DNA of 64,000 nucleotides from the NCBI GenBank assembly GCA_002633005.1, contig NMRA01000403.1:186603-250602 (forward strand). Direction: 5' to 3'. Positions within the stretch are counted from its first letter, which is position 1; every line of letters begins with the position of its first letter. Positions 5,002 through 49,652 of the stretch are shown here, piece by piece. The DNA is from Phoronis australis. Its lineage: Eukaryota; Animalia; Phoronida. The notes under the pieces are model-generated. The model had not been told where the DNA came from and searched no databases. It saw nothing but the letters and a program-made list of their open reading frames with translations. Made by a program: the position numbers and the translations under genes.

Positions 5002-5003
5002 GA

Positions 5004-10800: not shown

Positions 10801-11256
10801 TAGCACAGGCTGTACTCCATATAAGTTGATTTTTGGTCGCGAGGTGTCGCTTCCTATTGATATTATGGTTGGTCTGTGGAGGCGGATTCGGACTCCTCTC
10901 CTTCATGCTTGGTTGAATATGTTGAGTGGCTGAGGTCGTCTGTCCACAACTCTTTCGAATTTGCTAGAGAGAACCTACAAAACAGTTCTAGGCGCCAGAA
11001 AACGTATTACGACGCTAAAACAGTTTTGAATAAATTTGAGGAGGGTAGTTTTGTTTATAGGTGGTACCCACCCACTGCTCAACAGAAATTGGGATTGGGT
11101 CGGCGGGGTCCCTATTTGGTTGTTGCAAAGTTAAGTGACTACATTTACAGAATTCAGGAAGGACCTGGCGCTCGTGCAATTGTGGTACACGTAGACCATT
11201 TAAAGGCCTGTTCACAGGAGGGCTTGGTTCCCTGGCATAACGCAAAGTTGTCGTGA
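7775..11256 (+). pseudogene. pol: Gypsy pol (PR, RT, RNase H, integrase) broken by several frameshifts and stops
   Basis: ILGLDF, RVCIDFRALN, SSLDLASGYWQ, LPFGLCNA, YIDD, LDTDAS, ELLAV, HDSRTAGH..CRKC, IAIDIMGP, HSDQG, DGMIERFNR and GPY are spread over 7-8 ORF pieces. Confidence 0.93.
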
Positions 11257-18925: not shown

Positions 18926-19302
18926 AGATGACGCCACAAAATCCTTAATAAATATATACCCGAGCCGATACCTCAACGACAAACACACTCCGAGAGGCTA
19001 CATGTACGTGAATGAGCAAATAACAACTCGAGACGATGCCCCCTAAATGGTACCGAAGGGCAAAATACCTACCCCAAGACAATGTTTGAGATGGCAGGAT
19101 ATCAACTGCAGTAGGCAGCACGCTGAAATTGAACATAATAGGTGGAAATGAAAGTGGTGGTAAACTGGTTTCAGTAGGTGAAATGGACACGAAGGTCAAC
19201 GTGGACACAATGAGTCAGAAGGAGACCGATACATGTGTTTCTCGTTTGAAAAGTGTTTCGTATCAAAAGTATCTATAAAATCTTTGTTCATATGGTCTTC
19301 AG

Positions 19303-19369
19303 CGTCAAGATCCATGAGCAACCCGAGCCCTCACGGACTGTTCATATCATCTACGAAAGCTCTCGGCTT
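19303..19369 (+). CDS. Candidate upstream exon of the ankyrin gene (VKIHEQPEPSRTVHIIYESSRL)
   Basis: Borders TTCAG|...|GTAAGG. It ends in phase 0 and joins to give RL-VRSAAENG. An alternative donor or start nearby cannot be excluded. Confidence 0.35.
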
Positions 19370-19441: not shown

Positions 19442-19531
19442 GTTCGATCAGCTGCAGAAAATGGAAATTGTTCTGAACTTGTGAAATATATAAAACGTGG
19501 GTGGGATGTGGACCAAGAACTTAATCCGTAT
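19442..19531 (+). CDS. Ankyrin exon 1 (N-cap): VRSAAENGNCSELVKYIKRGWDVDQELNPY
   Basis: TTTTCAG acceptor, GTGAGT donor, 90 nt. Splices in frame to GTALH at 38814. Confidence 0.75.
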
Positions 19532-22500
19532 GTGAGTATTCACACATAAACGCTCGTATGATCATCATTGGCTTGAAGTGCACCTTTTTAAAGAAATGAC
19601 CATTGTTACACGTTCATCAGAATGGCATTGCTTTCCTGGTTTTATGTTGAATATTTCTATATCAACACTCTATACTGTTAACCAAAGCAACAGGTGAACA
19701 TCGTAGTAACATTACAACAGTAATAACAAAATATTCACATTTAGCTGCAAAAGTTGTAAATATGGCAGATGTTTTTCTTGATTTACGGTAGTACGTCGGT
19801 GAAAAAAAATTAATCAATTTATCGTATAAAGACCGTTTAGTATGGAAATGCTGGCAACTTTACTAAGGAGCACTTTATAGACGCTATTGGGACAGTCATG
19901 AGAATCAGTGATCAAAAAATATTTTTACCATGGAACGCTATTAATTTTTCCTGCAATATCGTCGACTGTCTCCAGGGTCCGCCTGAAGGATCCCGAAAAC
20001 GATCGATGATAGTGCAAACAATTAGAAACTGGCCGATTTGGGCAGACCACAGTCGCACCGGAGAGACAGTCTTTGAAAAGTGGGTCCGATTTTTTTAGAG
20101 TTTAACAATAATCTTGACCTGAATCTGTTGACAGATTTCGATATAGGACTACAGGAAGAAAGACGTTATTCATTAAGAAAAAGTATGGTATAAAATGAAT
20201 TTAGTAATGCTATATAATTTCTAAATTCCGTGTGTAAATTGGGAGGGTGTGACATGTATCTATGCCTTGGTTATTGTGGATTTACGAGTGGCTCGACTGT
20301 AAGATGGCGGAACTAAGGAAGGCATGCCTGAAAGAGACCCCGGTAGAGATCGGTAGCCGTCTCGGGCTTCGAAAAACTGTCCAAATTCACGTGTTCTTTT
20401 TTAAAATACACGGCGTAATCTCGCGAATGGCCTAGCGAGTTTCTAGCGTTATTGAACTCTACCCAGATCGAGTGGTATTCGAATTTTGTTTTGCTTATGT
20501 CATTTACTTTGTTGAGAACTTGAGGTGTTATTACCTAAATGCATTTTTCATTGCAATTGCATTTTGGACGACAAGGTTTTTGACTATATTCGACCCTTTC
20601 ATGACACCAGTAATGATTATTGCAAGCTTGATAATATAGTCTGTCTAGCTCAAGCAAAAGTTCCCGCACAATTTACATGTACTTGGTGCATTATATCACC
20701 ATAGTCAAAACGTTTAAATCGTATGTACTTATCAGACGATTCAAAGCTTGCATTAAAGATGCGATACACTGTCAGTAAGTTGATTAGATTTTTTTCTTGC
20801 GCACGGACTCGTCAGTGGGGTTTAAATGGCATTTCATCATCTTCTATTATGATTAGATTTCTTTACCAGTGCTTTTGGGTAATAATTTCACCATCCAGAC
20901 TCAAATAAGAATAGGCCTGTGTACAATTGGGGATTCTAGACTAACACATCATCTCAGCCTTGAAGTTTACATGTGTGTGCCTTTTACGAGTACTGAGCTT
21001 AACCAAGATTCAGTTGTAGTTGGTTCTTGGGATGGTTTCGAGATTTGGATAAAATTTGACTCTATCACTGACTATGTCATGGGTGCTTTTGGAAGTCTGT
21101 AATTGATGTAGAGAATAAAAGGGAGACCAGTTTTCCGTACCCCTTCATAAACAAAACCTGGTTTAGAAAATACGTCATCTACAAGTGGTCGTGCTACCCG
21201 AATCGATAGATACATTTACATGTCATGTGGGAAGTGAAGAGTGTATGCATAGTATGCAATATTCGATAAAAGACAAATTTGTAACAGAAGAGATCTTTTG
21301 AAACCTTGTCAAATGGGGATTAATTATCCAACATTAAACCCAATTTTTATATTGTTATCGTATCTCATGAACAACTATAAACAGGAGAGATGTAGTACTC
21401 TTTTCACTCATAAACCAAAGTGAAATAAAGTTATTGAAAATGAGGTTCTTGTACATTTCATTCACTTTTAAAGAAAGACTGCTGCAGTGATTCTGAATTC
21501 TTTTCTAATTGGGTACCATAATCCCAGTTTCAAATAGAAGGGTACTAGGCTCCTGTCGGTAGAATTTTGTTGAATAAATTAATGATCAGTAGAGGCATAT
21601 CTTTATATTGGTGTAATTATTTATTTGTTATATAGTCGTAGCAATCACCTTTTTACATGAATGTTTAATCGATTGATGCATATTGGAACACACGACACGT
21701 TTTGTTATTGACAGTCTTTATTCCGCTTCGTTCATACATGTATGTTCAGAATAAAACTCTACACTCAACGGAACATAGATGAAGTGACTGACATACCGAC
21801 ACAATTGACTTATCCCCAGGATTTTGGGTGACGGCTTACTGACCAATCAGAATGCAGCATTCTTGAAACACCGTCGTTTCCAAGCTGCCATTTTACCCCA
21901 TTAACAACACGTCGCCAGGTAAAATTTATTGTTTGTTTGTCGACATTTCGCAAGGGGTGGAACTTGCGATAGGTCAATCAAAAGGTATACCTAACACGAT
22001 ATTTCGAAACAACCGGGGTACTTGTTTCATTCTCAAGTGTATATAATATGACGCAGCAATGCCACCACAGAGCATAAGCTGGATACTTACACAGTGGGAC
22101 ACGGCAGCTGTGAAACACTGCAAAGAATGACAAATGAAGTGGGGTAAAGAGAAAGTCACGCAACCAACTGTAACGTGCGGCGCGACCCTGTTTGCTGCTC
22201 ATTCAAAACAGGCGTGCGTTCAGTAACGCTAGGACCTACGCTAGGACCTAGCTAAAATCTAGCCAAAGTCACGTGTTCTCATTTAAAATACACGGCCATA
22301 TCTCACGTAATTTCACGAAGTCTTGCTTTTTAGGGAGGTCCTAGCGTTACTGAACGGGAGGCTGGCTTCTTAATTGCAATCAAGAGTGATTAGAATACTT
22401 TCGATTGCAGCACATCGTGCTCTACGTACCGAATTGACGTGCTTTCCACAATTTCTTCACGGGTGATTTTACGTTCGTGACGTTGCAAAAATTGATCTAG

Positions 22501-25500
22501 GATGATTTTCTAGTAAAGTTGTGACATTTGGTAGGGTCTCTTCGACTTGGAAATTTGGCAAATGATCTGGACTGTTTGCAAACAAATGGTATTTTAATAC
22601 CCACATCTTAAAAGATGTTGCTTTGTTTGTGAAGTAATCCAAGCAAAGAGCACATAAACTACATGTACGATTGGTATCTCCCATCTGGTGATTTTATAAT
22701 AAGACATAAGTTAATTTTGTTCGCCTTGCCAAATCAGTGAACCAAAAGTCGTCTCAAACCATTCTGTAAGCATGTTACACAACATGCACGGTGTCTGCAC
22801 TTGAAAAGAAGCCAAAACGAGTACAAAAAATATTAGAATACAATTTAGTTTTGACGGAATTGGTAAACCCGCCTAAAATTTACCATTTCAACTCAATGGT
22901 AGGTTACACCTCTCGTTCTTTGTCACATTATAGACTAATTGATATGGTGCATGCATGCAACCAGCTTAAAAATTGAGGGCTCCAATTTTGAGAATGGGTA
23001 CCTTTTATTGAAAGAAACAGGGTACATGTACGTTCACAGCTATGAATTGGGCATTCGCTGAATTTAGTTGGTTCCTGTCTTATCAGTGGCCTTTTGTCTC
23101 GTTTTTTCTGAGTTTTTGTTTCTCTGAGGCGGAATAAGGCTCAACATTTAAAAAGAATAGTATGAGATGTGACATTAATTCAGCCCACGAGTCTTGATCA
23201 CTGTGGATTAAAGTGTTTCTTACGTTTTAAATTATTTTAAAAAATGCGATAATCGTCATCTTCAATCCATCATGTCATAGACAATCCTTTCTAAGCAAAA
23301 TCAGGCGAAGAATGGATGCAGTGAAAAAAGCTTCAATCTATACACTATCGTGTACAACTGGCAGCATTTTAGACCAATATGAAAAGAAAGAAAATAATGC
23401 TTACTTCTAGCGTCAGGTTTACATTGGACACAAAGTGTAAGAGGTCCGAATACAGCTTCACCAAACACAGACAGTTTTATCAAAATTGAGGTTCAAGTCT
23501 GAGAATTTGCAGACTGGTCGACTAGTGAGAGTGATGACTTGAGTGAACTTTCATAGCCTTCGAAAAGAGCAACATCATCAGTATATTGCAACAGTTTGCA
23601 CTCCGTATTTTCAAATTCGTTTCCTTTGCATCATGATTTTTTCCTGAACAATATCTGGAGAAAGATGTCACAAGTGCAACAAATTGCACTAGTTTAAACA
23701 ACGTCCAGACAGCACCCCAAATCTTGCAGCAACTCCATTCCAAGAATAACATATTCTACAACAGTGTTGTATGTGGATGGCTCTGATGCCTACTGCTCTC
23801 TGCATATAACCAAAATCAGGAGACAGAGTCTACAACCGCGGTTGGTTGAAAAGAGTTCAGAAAATATATAATATTGCATTATAACAAGATTTGAATTATG
23901 TAATAGTGCTTCAAACCAACTTCTAGTATATTCGTGAACAAGAATTATTTGTCTCATAAAATTCAAGCGCGCACCCAGGGGGAGTGAGCCTCCCATTTGG
24001 CGAAGTGGACTAAAAGGTCCGCCTCAGAGAAACAAAAAGTCCGAGAAAATGAGACAAAAAGTCCACTAAGAAGGCACAAACGTACAATTCACATCTCTGG
24101 GCGTGGTACCCCGTTTTTTTAGTCTTTTGGCTTTTTTGTATGTAAAAGGTCCACATCCTCTGAAATTCGAGCCCCCCATATTAAAGGCTGGGTGCGCGCA
24201 TGAAAATGATTGGAAGCAGTAGTGCAAGGAAGGCATGTATATTCTCCGATTTAACGTCCCGCCAAATAGACCTTTTGATCATCAGGGAGTAACTGCGTTT
24301 TAACTCGATCGGCAACAACACCTGAAAAACATGCACTAAGCAAAAAGAAGAGTTTCCAATTTCGTTAGCTTATAACGATTGTTTTTCTTCTCAGGAATGA
24401 GCGTGTTTATATCTTGACCCTGTAATTTAGTGGGTCGCCTGTTTCAACTACAGGTGTAGTTAGCAGTTCTCTGTAACATAGGTAGCAATGATTTTCAGAA
24501 AATAACATCCATTGGAAATCCATCTAACCAGGGAGGTTTTTCGTATATTCACAGTTTTTAGGTCTTCCTTAGTAAATACAGACCCAACCTTTGCTAACTT
24601 TACGTAATTTTGGAACGACGGTTGCCGATGTTGGTGCTTTCTCACCTGACACACGCCCTTGTCTACAGTCAGGTTTCTGGGTCGCGGTTATTAGTATCCT
24701 ATCCCAGACCAGTACTTGTTCGACAGACAACTATAAATTGATAAGAAAAATCACATAAATTGATGAAGCTATAGCAAATATTCCACTGAACACCATGTAA
24801 TAACCTCTAACAAATTTGTGTAAGGAACAAACGAAATAAAGAGGACAGAGGAGACATCAATACCAGGTGAACACGAAATACAGTTGGATTCTAATATCAA
24901 AATAGGTTAATGACTGGAGAAAAAAGTTCCTGAGGGTGAATATCGGTTGTAAAACCTTTTGCAAAGAGAGCATTGGGAAAAAAGGCACGGGGAACACCTT
25001 CAAATTAATATGTAAGCGGGTAACAAATGCTCTAAAAACCCATATTTATATAAACCCGTTGAAACCATTTTTACCTAAATTAACCTTCTGTGCAAGACCT
25101 CTGTCTAGTCAAAGAATCCAAACCCTAATTTTTAAGTTGTTCCGTGAGTTGAAATGACGACGCGTGCTCCGATTTAAAAAGCAGCGCTTTGCACGGCAGT
25201 TCTCACGTGCACACGTGTTAGCTACAGTGAAACACTTGTTTGAAGTATTTAAAGGGGCATTCATTAATCACGATGAAACGATCAGATTTCAGGTGTACAA
25301 TTCCGATTTGACCTTGCGTATTTCGTCATGATGATTCCGACTGAAGCTGCTGATAAATATTTATCTGACGTAGTATTAATACGTACAGGCTAGGTTTTTG
25401 ACAGAAGATTTGTAGAAAATCCCAGCAGTTAAGGACAAACGACGTGATGGTTGTTCACAGATTCCGGATGAGCTGTTCTAAGTAACATCGATCACGTAAA

Positions 25501-34500: not shown

Positions 34501-37500
34501 GTTGGGCCAGTGCTCTCTAACCGTTTCGAGTTACTAAATATGCATCGTAAACTAGAAGAAAGTAATAGTTGAAAAGATACGCACGACACTTTTATTATTG
34601 ATCTGCCATGTTACTGTAATCAAAGTCGTTAAAGAAGCAAAGATATATACAATATGCTTTTACTCTGAGTGCAATCTTCCTCCATTTGTTTGTTCTTCAA
34701 ATTTTACGACTCGACTGACTAAAAAACATGCTGTCGAAAAAAATCCGCAAAACGTTTTCCTAGCTGAATGACGTGTTGTGCATACACCGCTATCGATTTG
34801 GGGGCAGAAATTAAGATGACATAAACAGTTATCAAACAAACGGCAGGTCATCACGAACAATTAAGAACGGAATGCTGTTTAAGTTTTCGATTATAAGGTT
34901 TTCATTAAATAAAAAGCTTCAAATAATACCCATTCCGTGCGGGTTTCCATTATTGGGTAATTCGAGTTTGCTCCCTTAGCACGTATACACTGTACAGTAC
35001 GTGCTGTGCTGTAGTGGTAAAATTAAAGGTAAGTACATGTAGGCGCCCAAAGTCCATCGTATCACATTGAGCGCTGAACGTGTCTTACGGTGGATATAGG
35101 CGCTATGTTCAAATGCCAAAAGGTGGTTGGCTGCGCCGACGTGCGCCTACGGCCCACTACAGCACTGTGTAAGTGCCATATACATGTAAGTATGCTGACA
35201 ATAGATTAGCCTCAAAACAACACGTGACCCTAGCATGCATGTCGCTATGGCAAGGCCGTACCTTCTTAGGCACAAAATGAATCCGGGATTTTGCTTTTAA
35301 ACGTTCTTTTAGAAAATGAATTTGTTGTTACCGGTAAGTAAAATGAGAGTGGGACCCACTATAGACTGCGTAAGTGACAAATTCAAACCACGCGTACGCT
35401 AACAGGATACAATACAATGTCTCCTTCGATCACTGCACACATGATTATACCGTGCGACTCGAAACATCGCGATCCGGTTTCCGCATTTTGAATACATCTT
35501 GCAGTTTTGAAAACAAATTCCAGCGAGTGAAATTGTGGGTGGGGGCTTGCCAGAGCTGTTGGCGCTTTATTGAAGGCTGCCAAAAGTTAAGAGGGCGATT
35601 AGTAGAGCTGTTGGCGCTTGTTCCGAAAACTTCCAAAGGTAAGGAATACTGTACATGTACACTGTAGGCACAAACTTTAGTTTGGTCGTTGTTACGAATG
35701 ATCGCCGTTTAAAGAAGACGTTAAAAGCAAGTACCATGTTTCTGTGCTATGCAACCACCAAGGCGTCAATGTTTGGATATTCTTAACAACCACGGTACAT
35801 GTATTTTAGCCACCCGCAACATCTCTTCTAATTATCTTTAGCTGACGTTTCAATTGGAACAGTACTTTTTCCAAGCGAGTTTTAAAAATCAGTGACGTAG
35901 TCAATTGAAGACACTAGGAGTAAAAAATTTTCATATATTATTAATCGCTCACAATTTTACGTCTGCTTGTTCATACATGTTAGTAGCAATAGTTACATGT
36001 ACCAACTCAAAACTTGCCTGCTGAAAGAGAAGTCGTGTTCGTCGTTTGGCTATTGATAGATGTAGGGTTGAAATTTACACGCTTTGTGTGTTTTGCGATA
36101 AGAAAAACGAGACGCATGTTCAAACATTATGTTACTTTATTTTTCCGAATCATTATCCCCTGATGGGACCTCGACCGTGCACAAAAACAACAGGATCAAG
36201 CAGTGTCGCAATGCGATACTAAATTTATCTGAGATAATGTAATTGAATAATCAAGACATTTTACTTAAAAAATTAATTCATTTTTTTCACCACAAACTTT
36301 GGTAAGTTGATCGTTCCAGAATTTTTGTAAACGTCGCTCTTTTGTGACGTTTTATCATGTATTCTGCCATGGCCCAGAACTGGCTTCGGCGCAACAACAA
36401 AATTATGGTCGGACCCACATGAGTTGCTTCATAATTGCCTGGTATATGCTGAGAAGTGTACTACATATAAAATCTCAGTACGCTTATGTTGGAAATTCTA
36501 AGTTGCATACATGGACTTGATACGAGTGGCCAAAACCCGTGCTCTCATAAGAATTTTGGTCTGTACAGTACTACTATTGCAATATGCTAACGTGTCGAGA
36601 CTGAGTTCAATAATAGGTCTTAGTTAACGGGAACGACGTAACTCTGTTTTTAAAATACACTTTAGCAACATTCTTGTCATGGTTGTGCGGCCGTATTTTG
36701 ATGTTTCCTGGGCACTCGGTTGATGAAATTGGATGATGAGATTAATCATTTCGAGTGAATGTCACCCTACTGAAGATCTTGTCTTGGAATTACACTTGTC
36801 AAAAAGTAAGCGAAAGTGACATAGGCCTAATTTTGTTATTTAATCTTGATGCTCCGTTCAAAAGGTCACTAATAAATGTACACTGTACATGTATTGTGAA
36901 CTCAATATTTATTTTTCAAAACAATTAAAACGAACGCATTGACATTTGCTTGATTTCAATCCGGCGGCATTTTTATCGCTCTGTATCAGATTTTGAATTC
37001 TCTAGTGAAATGAAGTACAGTGTTGACGTGCAAATGCATGTCTAATTATTGATGTCCAGATGGTCTTCTATAATAGATGTACTGGTGTAGACGCGACGCA
37101 TTGTATTACTTGAGTGATTTTAAGAAACAATTAAATTTTAAAGATTTATTTAGATATTTTTCAAACAAGCACTAGTTTTACGGTGCAATATGTTGCTATA
37201 ATTACGCATCATTTCCCATATTTTGTACTTATGTTTTACGGTTCATGTTATAATTTTTGGTATGAGAGCTATTACTATATTATATTATTTCCCATATGTA
37301 CACATCAGTAAGTTTTTTTTACATATTTTGCCCATGTAGCCGTGTAGTCTAAGCGGCTTATGTTCAAGATGTTGAATTTTTTGGTAGTCCTTGTTTGCAT
37401 GCCATTAAAGCGGTCGTGATATTACCGTTTCATATGAAGCTCTTTGAGTCCACATATTTTTTACCTTTCTCTCTTTGAGAACCATCTCAAGGTAAATCAG

Positions 37501-40500
37501 CGATCATCTCAAAATTTTCTAGCACAACATAGAAAATTGTATCCTTGTCGAAACAGCATTTAGAACGTCTGTGCGTAGAAAGAGTCAAATTAATGTCAAA
37601 AACTCAAATTGCAACATCTTTTATTTCGTTAGTCACGTTCTCTTTAATTGATTTCTTGCGATAATGAAATGCCCCTTTAAATATATTCAAGAACTGACAA
37701 ATGTATCAATTTATCGCGTGTACACGCGAAAACTGTCTGGAAAAGCGCTCTTTTTAAAAGCAACGCTTCGCCTGGCCAGACCACTGCCACGTCGTCTGAA
37801 GAACAGTTGAACAAGTTGGGTTTGCGTCGAAATGGGAACCACAAGATTGATTGATTTTCTGAATAGCAATCTTGATAAGAAGATTGGTTTTGGTAAAATG
37901 TGTTTCTTCATGTGTTTAATTTGTAGAGCAGGGTTTATCATTTCCAGGATATTGTTCCTGCTAGCATTTTGTTCGAGACAAGTGGAATTGTGTTCCCAGT
38001 GCCCGTGTTCTTGGCTTGTAACAAACCCTATACCAAACATTGCCCAACTTATATTTTCTTAAACATCTTCAGACTTCAGTTGCGTTTTGATAGTACCCCG
38101 TGCCAATACCATATTCACCCTATATTGATGTTCTCTTATCCTTTTATTCCGATTGTTCCTAACTTTAATTTGTTAGAAATTATTTTGGATCTCAGGAAAA
38201 AGTGAAACCGTACTTCGTAAATTAGTTTGACTACATGTGCATGTATGTTTTTTCAATTCATGCGTCCAGAAGGAATTGTTTTGCGGTAGACCTAATTAAA
38301 AGAAACCAGACGACCACGAAAGTTTTACTCATATAATTTCAGCTTTCAAATAGAGTATATTTGATTTTTAAATGTCTATTACATCATATTTTGTGTCAAA
38401 ATTTTTCCAGCAAATTAAATTTCGTCCTGTTCATCTGTCTAAAAACGAAAAGTGAATTAAACCATTTGCTCTCATGAAATTGATTATTAAATATGAAGAT
38501 GATGGTCATATTGTCAATAACAATGATTGTTCTAGCTGCAACCAGTCGCCCATATTTTTAATGAACATGCTATGTCTTTGCTCTGAGGATTATTTCTGAC
38601 ACTAACAAACATACTACGAAAGCGATGTAAACTTGTTCTTTATAAATGATGATCTATTACAAGACAACTGATATATTGCATGATAAACAGAAAGTAGATT
38701 TAGTAATTGTGTGTACAATTGTCTTATTTCAACGTTTCCATGATGAGTAATTAAGATTCACGGTGAAGTTAATGATTCTGAAGTTTGCTATAACTTGTTC
38801 ATTGTTTCTGCAGGGCACAGCACTACACCGTGCAGCAGGGTGGGGACGTACAGAGGTGGCGCGTGTTTTGTGTAAAGCAGGCGCTAATATCAACAAGCAA
38901 AACGTGGTAATAGAAACTACTTGAGACGATTTTATAATTAAGACAGTGTTATCTTTGTTACAAAGCTGTAGACTAACTGAAGTTTAACTAAACATGTTGT
39001 GTGTAATAACACTTTTTATTTCTCATCATTTCGACATGTATTTTTCAATCTGTACCCGGTACATGCATCTTAAGAAACAGTGAGGTTTGAATTGTGTCAA
39101 CAATATATTTGGCGATTTAACCTTGATATTTTTCTATTCTTAATGGTAATCGTCCATTCAACATTACAACTTTATATTAAACAGGAAGCCGTTAAACCGG
39201 TGTATAAACACAACATGGAGGGGTCACTGTGAAGTTATGGCGGCGCTCAGTAATTTCTGACAGTCGACGTCTACACCATGTTCTGTTCTTACTTCAACAT
39301 TTTAAAATCACCTGTAAAACTTGAGTGTTGAAATCATTACAGGTATTGTAGCGTCTTAGAGGGGTCAGTAATGTTTCATTTATGTCACCTTTCAAGTTCA
39401 CTGATCCCCTGTGTATGTTAATTTGCTCTAAACGTTGATCGTCCATTCACACATCTCCATTATATATTACATAGATGATGGGCTGGACACCGCTGCACTT
39501 GGCAGCACTGTGTGGTCATACAGAGACAGTGAAGTGTCTTGTGGAACACAACGCTACAGTGGATGTCCGTACTCAGGTAATTAAGGACACACAGGTTGTT
39601 TGGTTGAACTAGTTGTTTACACAAGAGATGATTAAAACTGTTGAAGAACAAATTTTGTTGATATTTTCCCAATTTAATGTCCTTAAACAATGTTAAAATA
39701 AATGTCGTCTGCTTTCCGTTAGAGAACTGCCAAAGCTGCATCCGAACATTTCAGTTGATTCATTATTGCTGTTTTATTTACCGATATATATTCTACATTT
39801 CGTCAAACAATAGTTTCCTCCAGTCGATCTGGATCGCCTCATTTAGTTTAGGACTTATTTTCTACCTTATTTTGATTGTCCAACACTTTACAGCGCACAA
39901 TTACTTGCTGTGTGTTACCGTCCTGTAACGAGACAGGGAACACTGAACACGCTCTGTTGTTTTGTTCTTAAACTTAACATTTCCATGTTGAAATCATTAC
40001 AAGTATTGTAGCGTTTTAGAGGGGTCAGTAATGTTTCATTTATGTCACCTTACAAGTTCACTTTCCCCCGTGTATGTTAATTTGCTCTAAACGTTGATCG
40101 TCCATTCACACATCTCCATTATATATTACATAGGAGGGCCTGACACCGCTGCACTGTGCAGCACTGAATGGTCATACACAGACAGTGAAGTGTCTTGTGG
40201 AACACAACGCTACAGTGGATGAACGTGATAAGGTAATTAATGACACACAGGTTGTTTGGTTGAACTAGTTGTTTACACAAGAGATGATTAAAACTGTTGA
40301 GGAACAAATTTTGTTGATATTTTTTATAATCTAATGTCTCTCAACAATGTCAAATTAAATATCTTCTGCTTTCCATAGGAGGGCCACACACCGCTGCACC
40401 TGGCAGTACAGGAGGGTCATATAGCCGTCGTACAGTGTCTCATCGAACTCCGGGCCAACGTGAATGTTCGTAATGAGGTAATTATTGACACACAGGTTGA

Positions 40501-43500
40501 TGAACACAATACGTGACTAGGCTAATTATTGCGTGTTTTAATTAAATAATCGCAAATTGTGAAGTTCTGGAACAGAAAGGTATAAAACGTGACGTCCTCT
40601 TGACACACCCACTTCGCTATATTTAAGGATGACCGGCATTCTCTCATGTTTGTTCACTTTAGAATGGAGATACATGTACAGCATTACACCTGGCGTCGCA
40701 GAGTGGAAAGGCAGCGGTCGTAGAGCTGCTTGTCAATGAAGGCAGTTGTGAGGTGACTGCCGTAAACAAGGTATCTCTAGAGTGCTGCACTCCGAGCTTA
40801 GTAAATGTTCCAATAAACATGTTTTAAATGAATATTGAGTTCGAGGAATTGTTCATTCATAATAAATATCTCATCAAAAATGAACAACCTCTTTACGTGG
40901 AGTTATACAAAGAGTCACTTCTTCACTGCAAGTACCTTCCCTGAACACGCAGTGAAACCAGAGTCGCTGGTGTGATCGTACTATTGGCATACTAACTAAA
41001 AAACCAACCACACCATAAAGCGCCGAACACATACACAGATTTTAATTTTCTCACCTCATAAAGTTTATTCAGGTTTTTAATCACGTCAGTGCGCATTTAG
41101 GAACCCCACTTAAGTTTTTTTAGCCAAGATTGCTTTAAAAAGGGACTTTGAACAATCAGACTTCTAAGTCACATTGTCGCAAGTCCGTTCGGTGCAAACT
41201 TTTCGATAGGATAGTAACAGAGCACAGCACTGTACACTCATCTGGCCGGTGAGAGGATATTCCGCGAATAAAGTCGCTTGTGTTGCAGTTGCTAGTGGAA
41301 TATATAATACCCACACACAAAATGTGTGCTATGATCAGGATCAATCAAAATCGTTTCCTTTTGAGTAAAATAAATGCATGTCTAAATATTTCGTTTAAAT
41401 GTCTATTCCTATTATCAATTTCAATGAAAGTTTCGAATCTCATCCTCTATTAATTAATTAAAACCATTTGATAATAACCAAGTACTACAAGATGTGGATT
41501 TTTGTCTAAAAACGTTTTGTTGATGCTACGATGGTCAACACAAAAGTGACAAGACTAAATCGCGGTGTGTGGTATGGCGGATCTTGATCACGAAATAAAA
41601 AATACGTAAACATTTCAGTTTGAAAGCCATCAAACAGTTTGGTTCACCCCTCACAGTACCATCGTATTTCGGGTACCAGGACATAGTTCTCGGCGCAGCC
41701 CATCAAATGCTTTTTAGATTAAACGTTCTGGTCAAAACCTTCCGCAAGACGTGCGCTTTCATAGAAATGCAATTACGCAAAAATTAAATGAATGGACAAA
41801 AATATTCATATCTTCAGGAAGAATAAGAGACTGGCATTTCTTGAGATGGATTTCACATTACGACTGAGACTAAATCGAATCTTAATTATATTAAAAACTT
41901 TGTTCAAATTTCAACATTGTAGTGAGAAGAACGGTTTGGGGGTTTCAAGTTGTGAGACTTAGTTCTTGAACGTAACATTTTCGATGATGTGTGCACTGAG
42001 TGTATTGTGTGGAGAACGTGGAAGTTTTAAAACTCTTTCGGTAATAGCTTTTTGGGGGATGGTTTATTATTAAAATATTTATTCGCATTCCACTTTATTG
42101 TCTCAAATGTATGAACTAATAGAATGGCAACCCTTTTCGTATTGAGTCACTTACATCATTATTAAAGATGCTATATTACAGTATAATTCAATCACTTTCC
42201 TTTTCTGTGAGATTTGTCGGGTAGCATATAATTTTATCGATGGCCATGGTGCAACCTACTTTAATTCCTTCGGTGTGAGCATTATAGTATATGAAAAACA
42301 AAAAAATCACCAGAGGGCTGCAGGTTACTTGAATTTGCAATAAAACTCTCAGCGTGTCTTTATTTTGATCCCACTGCACGACTATGTATGTTAATGGCGT
42401 TGTTTGATTTATGTTCTCTGTAATGATGTAAACTTGCGAGCTCCATACGACGTCATTTGGCCTGGGTTGTTTGTAAAATGTATTTAAAAAATGTGCCACC
42501 GGTCGGGGTATAACCACCTGTCTCTGCCACGTGCACAATCTTTTTTCTTATAAACTGTGAATTTTAGGCCCCCACTTTCGGGTGTTAAAATCTCAATTTC
42601 CATTATCTTTTCCGTGCAAATTTTAAGTCATTCTTGAGCGCATATCTGGATAAATTGCCAAGGAGCTCCTTACTGAAAGATGCACAAAATTGTACAAATA
42701 AACATGTAGAGAACTGGAAATGTGTGTATGTTTTAATATTTGATTGCCGTTTATGAAGTAAAACTACATGTGAAGGGTTCGTTGCTCTATGATTTGCATG
42801 TTTATGCTTCCACGAAAATCGGCAATTCTCCGATTTACGAATAAAATCTGCCAATTCTTAAAGAAACATCTTCAGAACATTGAGCTTCTAGACCCCCAAG
42901 CAACAAGTTCCGTAGATTCCAAAACGTGTTACGTATTTTAGAATGTTGATGTTTTAGGACACTTTTACCAAGGAAATTTAATGAACCAAGGTGTAGAGCT
43001 GAGACAATAACAGTGGGGGTGTCAGTAAACTTTTTTTCATTGGTTTCCTTTTATAAATTCTGAATATTTGTCATGTAAGCCAGTGTGTCTGTGTTTCATG
43101 TATTTTTACCCTATATGCGCGTATTTAGGCCAATACGTAAAATGAAATATTATAAAGCCTACAAAACATGCAAGTATACAAAGGATATTATGCATGTGTT
43201 TGTGCGAAACATTTGAGTATGAAAATTTCCTTATGGCAGTTATTTCGGATATAGGTGTTAGTGCCTAAATAATGCGTAAAACACACAATGCTCTACACTG
43301 GGTTACACTTTTCGTTGTTTACTCAAAAAATTTCGTTTAGTGTTCTTCTTTAGAATTAAAGTGCATTAAAATGTGCCAAGTAAACAAATCTCTTACAGTG
43401 TATGCTCTAGTGGTCGAATAAATGTCAGTGGCATTCTGAATACGTGCTGTGCTTTTACTGAAACACAGACTGGTTAATGAAAGCTGTTTCCACTACTACA

Positions 43501-46500
43501 AAAGATTGAACGAATTCAGTTGACGCGATATAGGCTGAGCATCACCTGATTTGTGATTAAGGCATTTTAAGATGGAAATCAGTGCTTGTCCGATGTTTCT
43601 TACACGACGACAATCTCGAGACTGTCGTGAACACATCGGCCACGCGTTAACAGCTCATCATTTAGGCGAAGGTCAGTCGATGTCATGTTGAGTGTCACCA
43701 GATCGCCAACAGATAATTCTACGACTTAAGCTGCCGAAAACACTTTGCCTAATGGTGCTTCAGTTGCTGCGTGTTGACACCGATGGCACCGACTGCACTC
43801 CGGAAAATTTCCAGGCAACTGCCCGCCTTCCATCGACATAAATGCGAGCCACCTGATTGTTTTAAACGTGATAGTGTGTTGATACTACCCACCCAGAACA
43901 ATGATATCTTTGTTTCTGTTTCGCTTACTACAGTATTATACGTGTGTGTTAAGGATTTGTATGCCCTAATTTAGCAGTCTACCTATTTTGATAATGCTTA
44001 AAAACATGGATTGTAACAGAGTTGATGTTTGTAGTTTCTGAAACTAAACTACAAAATTTGATTTTTACCTCTCTACTACTCTGCCACTATTTGCATCACG
44101 TGACTTAACAGAAAGGAAATGTACATTGATAACAAAACAATATCAGATTTTATAACGTATAAATCTTTAAGATGATATCTCAAAACGTTACTGTTTCTAA
44201 TACACCTGTTCGTTTTTTTGTATAACTCGTGAAATCCCTGTTGACAGCCTCTCATGCAAAAATGCATTGTTTTAAAAACAGTTACGTACAGTGTGTTAGC
44301 AAACAGTGCATGAGAATAGTTTCCGATCAACCCTTTTGAGATAGGGTACTCCGAAGTTATCCAAATGTCCCTGGAACCCACACAACCTTAAAGAACAAGC
44401 GCCTCATACAAAGCTGCTGGTTACATATTTGAAACAGCTTGAGTGAAGTCAAGAAGCAAAATTTACAAATCAAGTGAACAAATAAGTAATATCGCTCTAT
44501 TCTGTAATACCCGGCAATAAAATGTCCTTGATATGTGACTGAAATAAATCATAGTTGTTTCATTTTGAACTTGGCGTAATTTTTGACAGTTTAAATATCA
44601 TTTCCACGAGCTGTTCATCAAACAATTGAAAATCGTGCAAATTTGTTTTTGGTTCATCAACACATTTCCATGCTTCTTGTAGGAAGGCAACACGCCGCTG
44701 CACAGCGCGTCTTCACGTGGCCGGCTAGCTGTTGTGGAACTGCTTCTGAAAACTGGTGTCGATGCGACGGTTGTTAATACGGTAAGATAAGAGTGTCAAT
44801 CAAATTGTGTGGTATGCTATCAGTATCTGCTTTCAATGGATAGGTAAGAGTGTTTGTAGTCATCATAACTCATTACAATTGTATATGTAAATATTATGTA
44901 TGTCCTGGTACACTGGAACAGCGTCCACCGTTGCTGATAAAGTCCTTTTCTACTTTTCTTTAAACTCCGAAGCGACTATCGACACGGAATTTTTAACAAA
45001 TTTAAACTATTCACTTGATGTAGTAGCCAGGTCGCTATGTGACTGCTTCAAATTTTGAAGAACCCGCAGCCCAATGAAGCCAGGAACTTACGTGAAGTAT
45101 TACCATTTCGTTCTCAACGTTGTATATTCGTCGTCTTTCCTGTTTAACACGCCAATCTACCAGCCTCGCATTGCTTATTTGGCGATAGGTGCAAGTATTC
45201 GGTTCATATTGGTACAGTTCACGTGCTTGATATTATAAAATTTTAGCACATGGTAGGAAGTAAATTTTACGTGCTTGTGTTACTCTTCAGTGTGAGCTTT
45301 AAAGGTAGTAAGTTGTGTCTTGCAGGTCGGACAAACAGCTTACGATGTCTGTGGCGACAATCGTGACATGTTTTTTAACAAAGTCGACGATGAGACTATC
45401 GAGAAAATAAAGAAAATTCTTGAGGTATGTAGTAGTGAAAAAAATCAGATTCTTGCTACAAAGACCATATTTTGTGATTAATGTCATTAACGCCATTTGC
45501 ACGATTGGGAGAAGTCGTGTGTTCGAACCCCGATCTGGACAGAGATATTTTCAGACTTAGCTATAGGTCACGTGGTGCGACCAACAGATGGCGTGTCAGA
45601 CGACTGATAATTCTCTCTTTTTTGTTGTATCAGTGTTATTTTGTTATAAATATACATCTCGCCTAGGCGGGTACAAGTAAGGTTTTCTCTCACTGCATTG
45701 GGGATCTTTGTATCATTTAAACAGCTCGGAACGTAATGTAGTAAATACTTGTGTCTAGAATCTGATATTTCTTTTACTTTATTTGACAAAAATCGTTGTT
45801 CACTGTAGAAGAATATGCGATTAAAGCAGCAAAGCGGAAAACCACCACCCTCAGATGAAAATGCGAACGGAAATCTCCTTCCTGTCAACGAGGAAGAGAG
45901 CGTACTATTAGCGTGGCTGGAGGGTTATCTGAAGTCGAAATATCGAGACATCCCTGACGGCGAATTGGACGTCAGCGTAAAAATAAAAACGAGAGAGAAC
46001 GGCACATTCCAACTGCTGAGTGTGGATACCAAGCTGATGGGTATTATATTGTGACTAAGTGTAAACTAAGATATATGTAAACACAGTCTTCATATAGACC
46101 GTTAAGTTCCATGTATAACGATATTTTTATTGAGACACCTCTGGAACTCAATACTTTAAGCTGTCATTAGCATGGCGAAAGTGCACGATGACAGCGCATT
46201 TCCAGAGGATTAAAACCGTTACTTGTCTTGCGTATTCAAAGACAAGAGGTGACTATGACTTCAGAATGGAAAGCATGCCGTTGTTATCAATGACAGTACA
46301 TGTATATTAAGAGCCAGGACTAGGAATTACATAGCCAGCTACATGTAGCTACATATACAGTACGTGATGGCTTCCTGTAAGCTAAAAAACTGGTCAAGAA
46401 ATTCAACTATATCAGTTTTGATTGCAATCATTAACTATGTAAAATTTCAAAATCTTTGTTAAGAACCAATAACTCATAATTACAAGGTGGTTAATGATAC

Positions 46501-48546
46501 AGAGTAGATCCTATTAATTTGTGTACAAAATTACATGTATGTGTGGCATGTCATCATTTTCTGGAACAACTCATTTTGTGCTCAACGTTATAGGTGGGAT
46601 GTTCTCTTATGTTCTCGTTTGCTACAAAAAACCCAAGTGACTACGTATTGATAGTTCTCCACCGAAATAAAATAAACAATAACCGATTATAGAGAGAGAA
46701 AGACGTTTTTGTGTGATTTTAAGGTAGTGAAATAGTCAAAATAGTTTATTTGAAAAATAAAATGAGCACCAACAACTGAAAACGGGTTGATCGACGAGTT
46801 TGACTGTGAGCCTGGAAGTGGTATTGCTCGCACTGGGGGAATTATGCACGGGAGTAGGATTTGTCCGAGAGTAGAGAAACATGTCCACCACACCGTAAAA
46901 TGTGGTTCATGAAGTCAAACTACGTTCGCTAGGGGGGAACAGCGTGCGCGTCCGAAAGATGTTGCTCGTTTGTAGATAATTCTAGGTCTGGCAAAACGAA
47001 ATAAATATTGAATCTATGAATTTAAGGGTCTGGTAACTGCTCATTTACGTTTGCAAGTTACGAAGTATACGGATGTTTCATTTCCTTTCCAGACTATTTC
47101 CCACTAGTTGTACCCGTAAGGCAGTCCTGTCTTTTGGGCAAGTTTCCTGAACAAGGTCAGAACGTGATATCGGCTGAGCTCCACGAGTCATTGGCCAATG
47201 CGCTGAAGTCGGTTGTTCTACTTGCACGTGCAGATGCACAAGGAGTGGGGTCCGGCTTCCGAGTAGGGCGCAATTATGTGATTACAAACTATCACGTGTA
47301 CCAATGCCTGAATGTCCCCAGTAAGTATTTTGTCTGTTGATTGAATGTATGAATCCGGGTTTTTGTAATTCGCCTAGGACACATGTATAATGGTTCCACT
47401 TTCCCTGCTGTAATCAAGGACCGGAATTTTAAGAGTTGGGTTAGATTTATAGGCCTATTTTCAGTTGTCCCCAGAGTTGCGCTGTGTATCGTCACTTGCC
47501 AATCTAATGCACTGTGATGACGACTAGTCTGNNNNNNNNNNNNNNNNNNNNNNNNNNNNNNNNNNNNNNNNNNNNNNNNNNNNNNNNNNNNNNNNNNNNN
47601 NNNNNNNNNNNNNNNNNNNNNNNNNNNNNNNNNNNNNNNNNNNNNNNNNNNNNNNNNNNNNNNNNNNNNNNNNNNNNNNNNNNNNNNNNNNNNNNNNNNN
47701 NNNNNNNNNNNNNNNNNNNNNNNNNNNNNNNNNNNNNNNNNNNNNNNNNNNNNNNNNNNNNNNNNNNNNNNNNNNNNNNNNNNNNNNNNNNNNNNNNNNN
47801 NNNNNNNNNNNNNNNNNNNNNNNNNNNNNNNNNNNNNNNNNNNNNNNNNNNNNNNNNNNNNNNNNNNNNNNNNNNNNNNNNNNNNNNNNNNNNNNNNNNN
47901 NNNNNNNNNNNNNNNNNNNNNNNNNNNNNNNNNNNNNNNNNNNNNNNNNNNNNNNNNNNNNNNNNNNNNNNNNNNNNNNNNNNNNNNNNNNNNNNNNNNN
48001 NNNNNNNNNNNNNNNNNNNNNNNNNNNNNNNNNNNNNNNNNNNNNNNNNNNNNNNNNNNNNNNNNNNNNNNNNNNNNNNNNNNNNNNNNNNNNNNNNNNN
48101 NNNNNNNNNNNNACTGTGCTTCTGCACCTCCCACTGAGGGCGCTGGCGTCGCTGTACTTTCCGTGGGCTCGCCGTCGTAAAAACCGTTTAATTTGTAATT
48201 TCAGGTTTCTGAGTTAAACCAATGGGCACAGCGGACATTTCCTGGCCGTGCCGTATTCCCACAAATCGACGACCCACGACGAGTTCTTTACCGAACAAGT
48301 CTACAGTTTGGCAAAGGCAGCTCAGGAAGTCCTGGTTTTGTACCCGATGACAAACATGAGGCGTGCGTCGCCGCGATACAGACACGTGGATTTCCGGATT
48401 TGCCAGATTTTCATTTCGTTCCCCAAGAGGTAGTCAAGGCTCGTTCTGTGGAGCAAGGGGTCAGGGTGGAGGCTGTCTATGACTTCCTCCACACCAACCA
48501 CCCTGCACTGTGTCAGGATATCTTTGGCAACAATAAGCCTAGTTAA
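19442..48546 (+). CDS. Spliced gene: ankyrin-repeat array + linker + FAM111-like trypsin-2 serine protease (5' end and catalytic-Asp exon unresolved)
   Basis: Exons 19442-19531, 38814-38906, 39475-39576, 40134-40232, 40379-40477, 40663-40770, 44683-44781, 45326-45424, 45809-46040 and 47093-47320 all have AG/GT borders and compatible phases. A terminal exon at 48205-48546 follows a gap. Confidence 0.8.
22217..22356. mobile_element. MITE with perfect 21-bp TIRs; relatives at ~20340-20462, ~26305-26428 and ~61120-61281
   Basis: CGTTCAGTAACGCTAGGACCT ... AGGTCCTAGCGTTACTGAACG. Related internal CACGTGTTCT..TTTAAAATACACGG cores and GTTA(C/T)TGAAC ends occur in the other copies. Confidence 0.75.
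23964..24202. mobile_element. hAT-like MITE (CA...TG ends, GCGCGCACCCAG inverted repeat); an inverted relative lies at ~22975-23135
   Basis: CAAGCGCGCACCCAG ... CTGGGTGCGCGCATG. No clear TSD. Confidence 0.55.
26092..28958 (-). mobile_element. Sola3 DNA transposon (decayed; one terminus present, the other lost at contig join n26091)
   Basis: Minus-strand translation gives SGNAGCYH, SESQNGKDLCDRKIAP, FPC..GY..F....L.QHLDVGNH, G*ALKK.K...RFS.KVK.FL..IFDEG..SG and LSESQI. The terminus GAGGCAG... abuts TTAA (28959-28962). Confidence 0.75.
28959..31968 (+). repeat. Second copy of 20714-21637 + 24102-26090 (allelic haplotype or segmental duplicate)
   Basis: Long high-identity alignment. This copy lacks ~2.5 kb and has an internal ~210-bp tandem duplication (~30617-31030). 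Confidence 0.85.
33113..35096 (+). repeat. ~1-kb direct duplication centred on single n at 34110 (likely overlapping haplotigs)
   Basis: 33113-34109 and 34111-35096 are near-identical, with identical ORFs at 33676 and 34660. Confidence 0.85.
35004..35168. mobile_element. Small MITE with CAGTGCTGTAGTGG-type TIRs
   Basis: C(A/T)GTGCTGTAGTGG ... CCACTACAGCACTG. Confidence 0.5.
38814..38906 (+). CDS. Ankyrin exon 2: GTALHRAAGWGRTEVARVLCKAGANINKQNV
   Basis: CTGCAG|...|GTAATA, 93 nt, ankyrin consensus. Confidence 0.9.
39475..39576 (+). CDS. Ankyrin exon 3: MMGWTPLHLAALCGHTETVKCLVEHNATVDVRTQ
   Basis: CATAG|...|GTAATT, 102 nt, TPLH motif. Confidence 0.9.
40134..40232 (+). CDS. Ankyrin exon 4: EGLTPLHCAALNGHTQTVKCLVEHNATVDERDK
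   Basis: CATAG|...|GTAATT, 99 nt. Recent duplicate of exon 3 together with its introns. Confidence 0.9.
40379..40477 (+). CDS. Ankyrin exon 5: EGHTPLHLAVQEGHIAVVQCLIELRANVNVRNE
   Basis: CATAG|...|GTAATT, 99 nt. Confidence 0.9.
40663..40770 (+). CDS. Ankyrin exon 6: NGDTCTALHLASQSGKAAVVELLVNEGSCEVTAVNK
   Basis: CTTTAG|...|GTATCT, 108 nt. Confidence 0.88.
44683..44781 (+). CDS. Ankyrin exon 7: EGNTPLHSASSRGRLAVVELLLKTGVDATVVNT
   Basis: TTGTAG|...|GTAAGA, 99 nt. Confidence 0.9.
45326..45424 (+). CDS. Ankyrin C-cap exon 8: VGQTAYDVCGDNRDMFFNKVDDETIEKIKKILE
   Basis: TTGCAG|...|GTATGT, 99 nt. GxTAxD is typical of a terminal ankyrin cap. Confidence 0.8.
45809..46040 (+). CDS. Linker exon 9 (KNMRLKQQSGKPP...DTKLM)
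   Basis: CTGTAG acceptor, open 77 codons, and a phase-1 donor compatible with the next exon. Confidence 0.7.
47093..47320 (+). CDS. Protease exon with catalytic His: ...ALKSVVLL...GVGSGFRVGRNYVITNYHV...
   Basis: TTCCAG|...|GTAAGT, phase 1-1. GSGF..TNxHV is the trypsin-2 (FAM111/HtrA/V8-like) His motif. Confidence 0.85.
47532..48112. other. Assembly gap inside the protease domain region
   Basis: Run of N. Confidence 1.
48205..48546 (+). CDS. Terminal protease exon with catalytic Ser: ...DDPRRVLYRTSLQFGKGSSGSPGF...AAIQTRGF...RSVEQGV...HPALCQDIFGNNKPS*
   Basis: TTTCAG acceptor, 113 open codons (absent from the ORF track). Aligns by eye to the FAM111A C-terminus (ITYDT.FFFGASGSP...AMHAAG...RSIIEFG...HKPWYEEVF). 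Confidence 0.85.
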   Translation, partial: VSELNQWAQRTFPGRAVFPQIDDPRRVLYRTSLQFGKGSSGSPGFVPDDKHEACVAAIQTRGFPDLPDFHFVPQEVVKARSVEQGVRVEAVYDFLHTNHPALCQDIFGNNKPS

Positions 48547-49652
48547 TTTGAGTCGACCATAGGGAGCTGTCAACCTAATCCTTATATATGTTAAGTTATT
48601 TTATTGCAATCAGGTTGTGTATTACCATGTTTATGTACAGTTTTAGGCGTGTATATCCAGTAAACAATTTAGTTTTTGTCATACCTCAGGGCCGAGAAGC
48701 GTGGTCCATGCCCCAGAACACTGCTTACAAATATCTGAATAAGTGTACATGTACATGTTGCTTACGTGAGTTTTACTGGCGGATTTAAAGTAAATGATCC
48801 TATAAGATGCCAGATGTGGTAAAACTAACTAGCGCGTTGATAAGTTTGAATGCCTAAGAACAAAACTTCAGACTGAAAAGACAAGATATGATTTCCTGAC
48901 ACATTCATGGAGCCCGTTCTATGACCCTGACTTAAGTTCATTTTTACTTAAAGAGTTCCCACCATGTATTTTCTTGGTTTTTGAGGTTTCAGTGAGCTAA
49001 TATGACATGAATACCATCAAGTGTAACTGAAGCACTTTTTGTTCTAAATAGTCGTAATTTTTCTATCTCTGAAGATAAACTATTTATTTCCAAGTTTCTC
49101 GCCAAATGATGTAATGGGTGGAATACGTTTGGTCACTTGAGAATCAGTTGCAATGGCAGAAAACAGCAGATCAGAAGACTACAGGGTGTAGGACGATTTT
49201 CAGCGAGAACTGGACAATTATTATGAAGACAGGGAAGTGATCGGATATGGGCGTCACACAAACAAACAATCAATTCGATTTTGCACTTAACGAACTTTCG
49301 AGGGGTTTTAGGTCGTAAGAACTCGGCCCACATGCGCGAGAAATGCTGAAGACAAATGTTAGCTACAAAAAACTGAACCAAGGGGTGATCAATATTCACA
49401 AAATAGACTCTTAACAATCACAAGGCTGCAGTAAACCTGGGTCACTAGTATTCACTATTGCTATGATGGAATGAGCACGGTCTATACAATGCATGCGCCA
49501 ACCCTACGTGTCGTAGCACTCGATATGGGCCGTGGTCGAGGGACTGGTATCACTCGCTCTATAATGGAAGCAGTTTGCTCGTTATTTATAAAATTTGAAA
49601 ATACACTTACAAGGTGGTGAATCGTTCGTCGTTTGATCGAAACACAATTGNG

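What the first reader, a model, noticed from the sequence alone, without database searches (positions are those of the whole stretch)
19442..48546. Hidden ankyrin-array + FAM111-like protease fusion gene: candidate sensor-coupled intracellular defence protease
Seen: ten GT-AG exons join in compatible phases from an ankyrin N-cap through eight ankyrin units and a linker into GSGF...TNYHV. A terminal exon missed by the ORF track carries GSSGSP and a C-terminus resembling FAM111 (RSVEQG, HP..CQDIF). No signal peptide is seen in the recovered exons, although the true N-terminus is unresolved. Established: vertebrate FAM111A is a trypsin-fold protease (His/Asp/Ser triad) with PIP-box/UBL N-terminal regions. 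It acts at replication forks and restricts SV40 and poxvirus host-range mutants. Ankyrin arrays act as ligand sensors gating an effector in RNase L. Inference: here the regulatory module is an ankyrin array, giving a ligand-activated protease. I do not know this architecture to be characterised.
Basis: partly seen in the sequence, partly recalled or inferred. Interest (0 to 1): 0.85.

Follow-up and report, generated by a model that had tools for sequence, protein, structure and literature searches.

The report
Variable ankyrin array on FAM111-like protease
This expressed animal gene splices six ankyrin binding repeats, whose contact residues differ between copies, onto a FAM111-like protein-cutting domain whose middle is hidden by an assembly gap, and it likely works inside cells as a variable target-finder that would aim or switch on cutting of foreign proteins.

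Summary
The fusion is real.

Two corrections. There are six full ankyrin repeats plus two cap-like exons. The last two protease exons are out of phase: about 100 residues, including the catalytic Asp, lie in a 581-N gap.

The protease is FAM111-like. A profile of its relatives hits human FAM111A at 4e-28, the next structure at 0.005 and no HtrA. A bivalve relative models as a FAM111A-type helix dimer.

Two recently duplicated repeats differ only by amino-acid-changing codons, at 5 of 6 positions that ankyrin binder libraries randomise (p about 0.001, one pair). All 15 variant RNA joints checked keep the frame.

Best reading (0.5): a variable target-binding defence protease. No defence role was tested, and the N-terminus is unknown. 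I found no such architecture in print. This scan noted a similar ankyrin-FAM111 gene and a Roco-FAM111 gene on other pieces of this genome (unchecked).

The parts
19442..19531 (+). Exon 1 of those recovered: ankyrin N-cap-like unit; holds no ATG in frame, so an upstream coding exon is needed
   Evidence: no Ank hit; joint 19531>38814 in 3/5/66 reads
38814..38906 (+). Ankyrin repeat 1
   Evidence: Pfam Ank 31.6 bits, cut-off 21.1; joint to repeat 2 not listed, joint to a repeat-3-type exon in one contig and 4 reads
39475..39576 (+). Ankyrin repeat 2; one copy of a recent tandem duplication
   Evidence: Ank 41.6 bits; 39326-39717 vs 39986-40374 91% identical
40134..40232 (+). Ankyrin repeat 3; second copy of the duplication, differing from repeat 2 at 8 of 33 codons, all changing the residue
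   Evidence: Ank 39.8 bits
40379..40477 (+). Ankyrin repeat 4
   Evidence: Ank 42.6 bits; joints
40663..40770 (+). Ankyrin repeat 5 (36 aa; the reads that span its 5' joint carry a form two codons shorter)
   Evidence: Ank 30.0 bits; tables 4, 5, 5c
40771..40845 (+). Candidate intronic 3' end: read-through of 18 codons to a stop, AATAAA at 40812, molecules ending near 40845; would give an ankyrin-only form
   Evidence: table 6 (5 of depth 8 in X2, 14 of 49 in X4, not listed for X3); suggestive only
44683..44781 (+). Ankyrin repeat 6
   Evidence: Ank 34.1 bits; joints
45326..45424 (+). C-cap-like exon
   Evidence: no Pfam hit; joints on both sides in RNA
45809..46040 (+). Linker exon, 77 aa, no family assigned
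   Evidence: no Pfam hit, no Atlas hit; joints in RNA
47093..47320 (+). Protease N-terminal exon: predicted dimer helix, GSGF strand, catalytic His motif TNYHV; ends in phase 1
   Evidence: Trypsin_2 E=0.078 only; second-best of 2905 six-frame segments against the relatives' profile, E=0.04
47532..48112 (.). Assembly gap (581 N) where the missing protease exon or exons (about 100 aa, with the catalytic Asp) are inferred to lie
   Evidence: phase mismatch; unmatched profile positions 42-145; loose read ends and one bridging contig; their ends are not elsewhere in the window
48205..48546 (+). Terminal protease exon: catalytic Ser motif GSSGSP, FAM111-type C-terminal helices, stop
   Evidence: phmmer best E=8.6e-10; E=1.5e-26 to the relatives' profile; RNA depth

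Best explanation
The gene is spliced and expressed and joins six ankyrin repeats with variable contact residues to a FAM111-like serine protease domain; it is likely an intracellular defence enzyme whose ankyrin array would bind a foreign or invader-altered protein and bring it to, or switch on, the protease. Step 1 (shown): one repeat per exon, all in phase 0, lets repeats be duplicated, lost and swapped; RNA holds many in-frame variants. Step 2 (shown for one pair, inferred in general): differences concentrate on the concave binding face. Step 3 (inferred): binding a multimeric target would hold two protease domains together through their N-terminal helix, the interface human FAM111A needs for activity. 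Step 4 (inferred): the active dimer would cut the bound target or nearby host proteins.
For: Chain of RNA joints from the ankyrin exons to the protease. Profile of relatives to FAM111A E=3.9e-28, next structure 0.005, no HtrA among the 16 hits at E<=1. Model of relative P0012: FAM111A Z 11.2 (rmsd 4.6, 210 aligned), next 8.0. His and Ser motifs intact. P0012 homodimer: score 0.61 against best control 0.01, runs agree in at least 95% of contacts, pLDDT at least 83; the mark was reached by 21 of 30 solved homo-pairs and 0 of 23 single chains (eukaryotes 17 of 29 and 0 of 30). Its interface (residues 24-40) is the helix FAM111A uses (PMC10920703, passages), and H33, L36 and A37 of that helix are identical in the window's exon. 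Repeats 2 and 3: 8 of 8 codon differences change the residue, 5 of the 6 positions randomised in PMC3308923 differ (p=0.0013), and amino-acid-changing differences per site are 0.17 against 0.07 in the flanking introns (p=0.010). 15 of 15 variant joints checked keep the frame. Mammalian FAM111A restricts viruses (PMC10469034, abstract).
Against: Nothing here tests infection, induction, ligand or substrate. The selection signal rests on one pair of repeats; non-synonymous against synonymous is not significant (p=0.09), and a second, recalled set of positions gives only 4 of 6 (p=0.02). The catalytic Asp and the N-terminus are unseen. The dimer model is of a bivalve stand-in and may be from memory of 8S9K (only 1 of 7 eukaryote pairs without an older solved relative passed). 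Full-length FAM111A is already a dimer without ligand, so gating by clustering is a guess. The joint between repeats 1 and 2 is not listed and that intron is covered at about 130-260x in X4. Variants cannot be split into alleles and paralogs without a genome.
Confidence: 0.5

Rival explanations
1. An ordinary lineage-specific domain shuffle: the ankyrin array is a scaffold that recruits a host substrate or partner for a regulatory or developmental protease, and the variation reflects high polymorphism and exon duplication.
For: Ankyrins commonly recruit substrates (PMC5662874, abstract). Introns here also differ by about 5% between reads and window (32 of 577 letters in one contig). Expression differs 9-16-fold among three RNA runs for unknown reasons, which could be tissue.
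Against: Differences between the duplicated repeats are all amino-acid changing, fall on the binding face and exceed the flanking intron rate. Five different in-frame forms of the first hairpin occur in one run.
Confidence: 0.25
2. A conflict gene, but not against pathogens: the variable array reads self versus non-self proteins (allorecognition, gamete or selfish-element conflict) and triggers proteolytic cell death.
For: Near-identical repeats with a few hypervariable sites are the mark of fungal allorecognition NLRs (PMC13449251, passages).
Against: No NTPase domain in the recovered exons; no evidence on tissue or germ-line expression.
Confidence: 0.12
3. An RNase L-like switch: the ankyrin array binds one small second messenger and thereby dimerises the protease.
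For: N-terminal ankyrin array plus a dimer-dependent effector (RNase L layout recalled; FAM111A dimer need).
Against: A fixed small ligand should conserve the binding face, yet it varies between neighbouring repeats and between transcripts.
Confidence: 0.06
4. The protease is inactive or seldom made: the gene acts mainly as an ankyrin binder or decoy (short ankyrin-only forms), or the hidden exon lacks the catalytic Asp.
For: Candidate intronic 3' end at 40845 and a well-covered intron after repeat 1; Asp unseen.
Against: Joint counts stay level from repeat 4 to the protease (142-205 reads for the main joints in X4). His and Ser motifs are intact, and the 30 read letters at each end of the missing part have no stop in the expected frame (read by hand).
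Confidence: 0.07

Closest known systems
Human FAM111A (PDB 8S9K, 8S9L; PMC10920703 passages, PMC9798293 passages and section 11, PMC10469034 abstract)
   Same: C-terminal trypsin-fold domain of the same family; His and Ser motifs; N-terminal helix at the dimer position; same C-terminal helix pair.
   Different: Ankyrin array upstream instead of the PIP box and two ubiquitin-like domains; variable between copies; replication-fork role not implied.
Invertebrate FAM111-like gene models (coral and lancelet entries named in PMC9798293; bivalve proteins P0001, P0003, P0012, P0013, P0015, P0043 found here)
   Same: Nearest sequence relatives, at most 36% identical over the aligned terminal exon; lack UBL domains according to PMC9798293.
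   Different: No ankyrin hit in 0 of 17 relatives scanned and 0 of 23 listed (limited to 585 aa or less). The window's exon sits on a long branch in no well-supported group.
Fungal NLRs with highly internally conserved repeats (HNWD family; ankyrin cases Pa_3_8560, Pa_7_10370, Pa_2_8180; PMC13449251 passages)
   Same: Near-identical repeats with hypervariable contact positions and repeat-number variation, joined to an effector.
   Different: No NACHT or NB-ARC ATPase in the recovered exons; only one near-identical pair here (86% nucleotide, 25 of 33 residues); effector is a FAM111-type protease; repeats are separate exons.
RNase L (recalled, not looked up)
   Same: N-terminal ankyrin array before a dimer-dependent effector.
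   Different: No pseudokinase or nuclease domain; binding face variable.
Trypsin-like effector domains of bacterial counter-invader systems (PMC8195603 passages)
   Same: A trypsin-like peptidase used as a swappable effector behind sensor or adaptor domains.
   Different: The paper's main text never mentions FAM111; this is a spliced animal gene.

Membership tests
FAM111 serine proteases | C-terminal Trypsin_2 domain homologous to the FAM111A protease domain | tested here: met
   Through relatives: exon to relatives E=8.6e-10 and 1.5e-26; profile to FAM111A E=3.9e-28. Direct tests are weak: the exon alone does not find FAM111A by phmmer; a three-sequence profile ranks it first at E=0.013; the exon's model ranks it first in Foldseek at E=0.53 and tenth in VIA, Z 2.7.
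FAM111 serine proteases | Catalytic His and Ser | tested here: met
   TNYHV and GSSGSP align with the family motifs.
FAM111 serine proteases | Catalytic Asp | not testable with these tools
   Falls in the N gap; the read tool gives only 30 letters of each loose end.
FAM111 serine proteases | Dimerisation through the N-terminal helix of the protease domain | tested here: inconclusive
   Bivalve stand-in P0012 passes (0.61 against best control 0.01) with that helix as interface, possibly from memory; three core residues shared with the window's exon; the window's own domain could not be folded whole.
Vertebrate FAM111A/B orthologues | Two ubiquitin-like domains before the protease | tested here: inconclusive
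   No hit in the linker; only about 110 residues lie between the last cap and the protease helix; the N-terminus is unknown.
Vertebrate FAM111A/B orthologues | N-terminal PIP box (placental FAM111A) | not testable with these tools
   N-terminal exon not found.
FAM111 serine proteases | Intracellular, no signal peptide | tested here: inconclusive
   Highest 19-residue hydropathy 1.23 in the recovered exons; first exon missing.
HtrA/DegP (S1C) | PDZ domain after the protease | tested here: not met
   The frame stops at 48544-48546 straight after the protease helices; no Pfam hit in that exon.
TYSND1 | Closer kinship to TYSND1 than to FAM111 | not tested
   No TYSND1 sequence was compared; the tree holds neither FAM111A, HtrA nor TYSND1.
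RNase L | Ankyrin array followed by pseudokinase and nuclease domains | tested here: not met
   The exons after the ankyrin array encode a linker and a protease.
NLRs with highly conserved repeats | NACHT or NB-ARC ATPase domain | tested here: inconclusive
   None in the 11 recovered exons, but the upstream exon or exons are unknown.
NLRs with highly conserved repeats | Repeats 80-100% identical with a few hypervariable positions | tested here: inconclusive
   One pair only: 85 of 99 bases, 25 of 33 residues; the other repeats are more divergent.

The most novel reading that the evidence does not exclude
Invertebrates keep a germ-line library of natural DARPin-like receptors, built from swappable one-repeat exons and wired directly to a FAM111 protease. 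FAM111 would then be an ancient plug-in immune effector whose replication-fork role in mammals came later.
Probability: 0.3. Interest if true: 0.85.

Novelty: new variant of a known kind. Interest (0 to 1): 0.62.

Why it matters
PMC9798293 asks what drove FAM111 evolution and suggests antiviral defence came first, but describes no sensor domain in the invertebrate members. A FAM111-type protease behind a diversifying ankyrin binding surface is the architecture that idea predicts, and it makes the idea testable in an invertebrate. It would also be a natural example of a binder library coupled to proteolysis, of interest for invertebrate immunity and for targeted protein cleavage.

Tried and rejected
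No genome is held for this window, so paralogs could not be counted.

Searches for longer relatives, which would hold an ankyrin-protease fusion, found none: 0 of 133 candidates with the terminal exon and 0 of 7991 with the profile. Both are weak evidence by the tool's own note. The metagenome scan confirmed 0 of 253 matches. The Atlas gave generic Trypsin_2 clusters for P0012 and nothing for the linker.

Direct join of the two protease exons: rejected (phase mismatch). Two in-frame AG sites at 48284 and 48317 exist, but the listed read ends point to 48205.

Extra ankyrin exons in the 19-kb first intron or upstream: none; the best other score had E=1.2. The first coding exon: 17 ATG-to-donor candidates between 11946 and 19420. 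The nearest, 19292-19369, has no joint among the 15 of 80 shown, so none was accepted.

The model of the terminal exon alone (pLDDT 66) was too partial to discriminate among trypsin folds. RHIM-like motifs seen by eye in relatives were not matched by Pfam at E<=5 (0 of 8). The 9-16-fold higher depth in X4 is not used as evidence of induction, because conditions and individuals are unknown. P0008 was dropped as a spurious repeat hit.

Literature searches that found no ankyrin-FAM111 description: 1 paper, a poxvirus review where the terms are unrelated; 25 of 183 listed; 20 of 46 listed. No supplements were read; those of PMC8195603 or PMC9798293 could list such architectures.
Full report
Observation. 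The ten exons from 19442 to 47320 each have an AG acceptor and a GT donor and read as one 416-aa frame without a stop. Six of them pass Pfam's ankyrin cut-off, one repeat per exon, all in phase 0; the first and the eighth are cap-like with no ankyrin hit. A profile of the six repeats finds no further ankyrin exon in the window. Exon 47093-47320 holds GSGF...TNYHV, and the terminal exon 48205-48546 holds GSSGSP and the stop.

The gap. Those two exons cannot be joined: one ends in phase 1, the other starts in phase 0, and 581 N lie between them. A profile made only of 36 database relatives matches the first at positions 12-41 (E=0.04, second-best of 2905 six-frame segments) and the last at 146-254 (E=1.5e-26). 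About 100 positions, including the catalytic Asp, are therefore missing. In run X4, 170 reads leave the exon at 47320 and 338 enter at 48204-48205 from sequence not in the window, and one contig of X1 holds both sides. The missing exon is inferred to lie in the gap; the Asp itself was not seen.

One gene. Four runs were laid on the locus. Two are listed through variant alleles (repeat 3 to 4, repeat 4 to 5), and one is bridged across the gap. The joint from repeat 1 to repeat 2 is not among the 15 of 107 shown. Repeat 1 is linked onward only by a joint to a repeat-3-type exon (one contig, 4 reads), and the intron after it is covered on the sense strand. No single read spans the gene. From repeat 4 to the protease the main joint counts stay level (142-205 in X4), which argues for one transcript. 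The first recovered exon has no in-frame ATG and its upstream partner was not found.

What the protease is. The terminal exon finds 17 representatives among 1.84 billion (best E=8.6e-10). One was a spurious repeat; those that carry names are uncharacterised bivalve proteins. A profile of them and the two window exons hits human FAM111A at E=3.9e-28, the next structure at 0.005, and no HtrA among 16 hits. A model of the relative P0012 matches FAM111A at Z 11.2 against 8.0 for the next and 7.7 for DegS. Direct tests of the half-domain exon are weak, so the assignment runs through relatives. In a tree of 37 rows the exon lies on a long branch in no supported group; FAM111A, HtrA and TYSND1 were not in that tree. 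The organism was not identified; it is an animal whose nearest named relatives for this domain are bivalves.

Dimer. Human FAM111A needs a dimer made by its first helix (V347, V351) for activity, and the full-length protein is dimeric (PMC10920703, passages). P0012 folded as two copies passes the mark (0.61, best control 0.01; runs agree in at least 95% of contacts; pLDDT at least 83; calibration 21 of 30 pairs and 0 of 23 single chains) with residues 24-40 at the interface. H33 and A37 are the V347 and V351 positions by alignment, and the window's exon has the same His, Leu and Ala there. This is a stand-in, and the pass may be from memory of the solved dimer.

Variation. Repeats 2 and 3 come from a recent tandem duplication (91% identical over about 390 bases with flanks). 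They differ at 8 of 33 codons, all changing the residue, at positions 1, 2, 3, 5, 10, 14, 18 and 32, and repeat 2 has one extra codon. Five of the six positions randomised in the ankyrin library of PMC3308923 (passages) are among them (p=0.0013); a second set recalled from memory, tested first, gives 4 of 6 (p=0.02). Amino-acid-changing differences per site are 0.17 against 0.07 in the flanking introns (p=0.010), but against synonymous sites p=0.09. In the RNA, all 15 distinct variant joints at exon borders whose letters were shown keep the frame; 203 and 108 further rows were not shown. They include five forms of the first hairpin in one run, skipped repeats and repeated repeats. Alleles and paralogs cannot be told apart without a genome.

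Mechanism. Shown: a spliced, expressed ankyrin-protease gene; His and Ser motifs; variation on the binding face. From known biology: FAM111A is an intracellular, dimer-dependent protease that restricts viruses (PMC9798293, PMC10469034 abstract, PMC13245274 passages); near-identical repeats with hypervariable sites mark fungal non-self receptors (PMC13449251 passages). Inferred: the array binds variable foreign proteins and recruits them to, or clusters, the protease (0.5). Rivals: an ordinary scaffolded protease (0.25), non-pathogen conflict (0.12), an inactive or decoy product (0.07), an RNase L-type nucleotide switch (0.06). A candidate intronic 3' end at 40845 would give an ankyrin-only form.

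Novelty. Seven literature searches found no ankyrin-FAM111 protein. The FAM111 review mentions ankyrin 0 times and describes coral and lancelet members only as lacking ubiquitin-like domains. Database searches for longer relatives were blank but weak, so uncharacterised gene models with this layout may exist. This scan's own unchecked notes report a similar ankyrin-FAM111 gene and an LRR-Roc-COR-FAM111 gene on other pieces of this genome; the first prompted the binder-position test and the fungal comparison. They are leads, not independent support.

Verdict. A real gene and a new variant of a known kind, with a testable link to the origin of FAM111 proteases. Function is untested, and the Asp exon and N-terminus are unseen. 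Interest 0.62.

Noticed in passing
window 3973-11253 (+): LTR-retrotransposon-type remains: two gag-like frames (3973-4998, 6726-7832), then reverse transcriptase, RNase H and integrase pieces in shifted frames (Pfam).
   Followed up: partly
window 56998-61232 (+): A separate gene with two Kringle exons and classical trypsin exons, plasminogen-activator-like in layout.
   Followed up: partly
window 38907-39474 (+): The intron after ankyrin repeat 1 is covered on the sense strand at about 130-260x in X4 and by a 577-base contig; read-through stops after five codons. Retention, a short form or a paralog's UTR.
   Followed up: partly
window 40771-40845 (+): AATAAA at 40812 and molecule ends at 40845: candidate intronic polyadenylation giving an ankyrin-only protein.
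   Followed up: partly
proteins P0001, P0002, P0013, P0015, P0042: Several FAM111-like relatives carry a short repeated Ile/Val-Gly-Asn motif upstream of the protease that resembles a RHIM amyloid motif (recalled), three of them after an MG/MD-Cys start; Pfam gave no RHIM hit.
   Followed up: partly
window 22200-22400 and 23990-24200: Short repeats in the first intron that are abundantly transcribed on both strands, with many loose read ends; probably dispersed mobile elements.
   Followed up: no
window 33572-33784 and 34556-34768; 49517-49561 and 49818-49862: Local duplications giving near-identical open frames.
   Followed up: no
runs X2-X4, window 45106-48408: Depth per base read is 9-16 times higher in X4 than in X2 and X3 on the cap and protease exons but only 2.5-3.6 times on two ankyrin bins; other genes may share these ankyrin exons.
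   Followed up: partly
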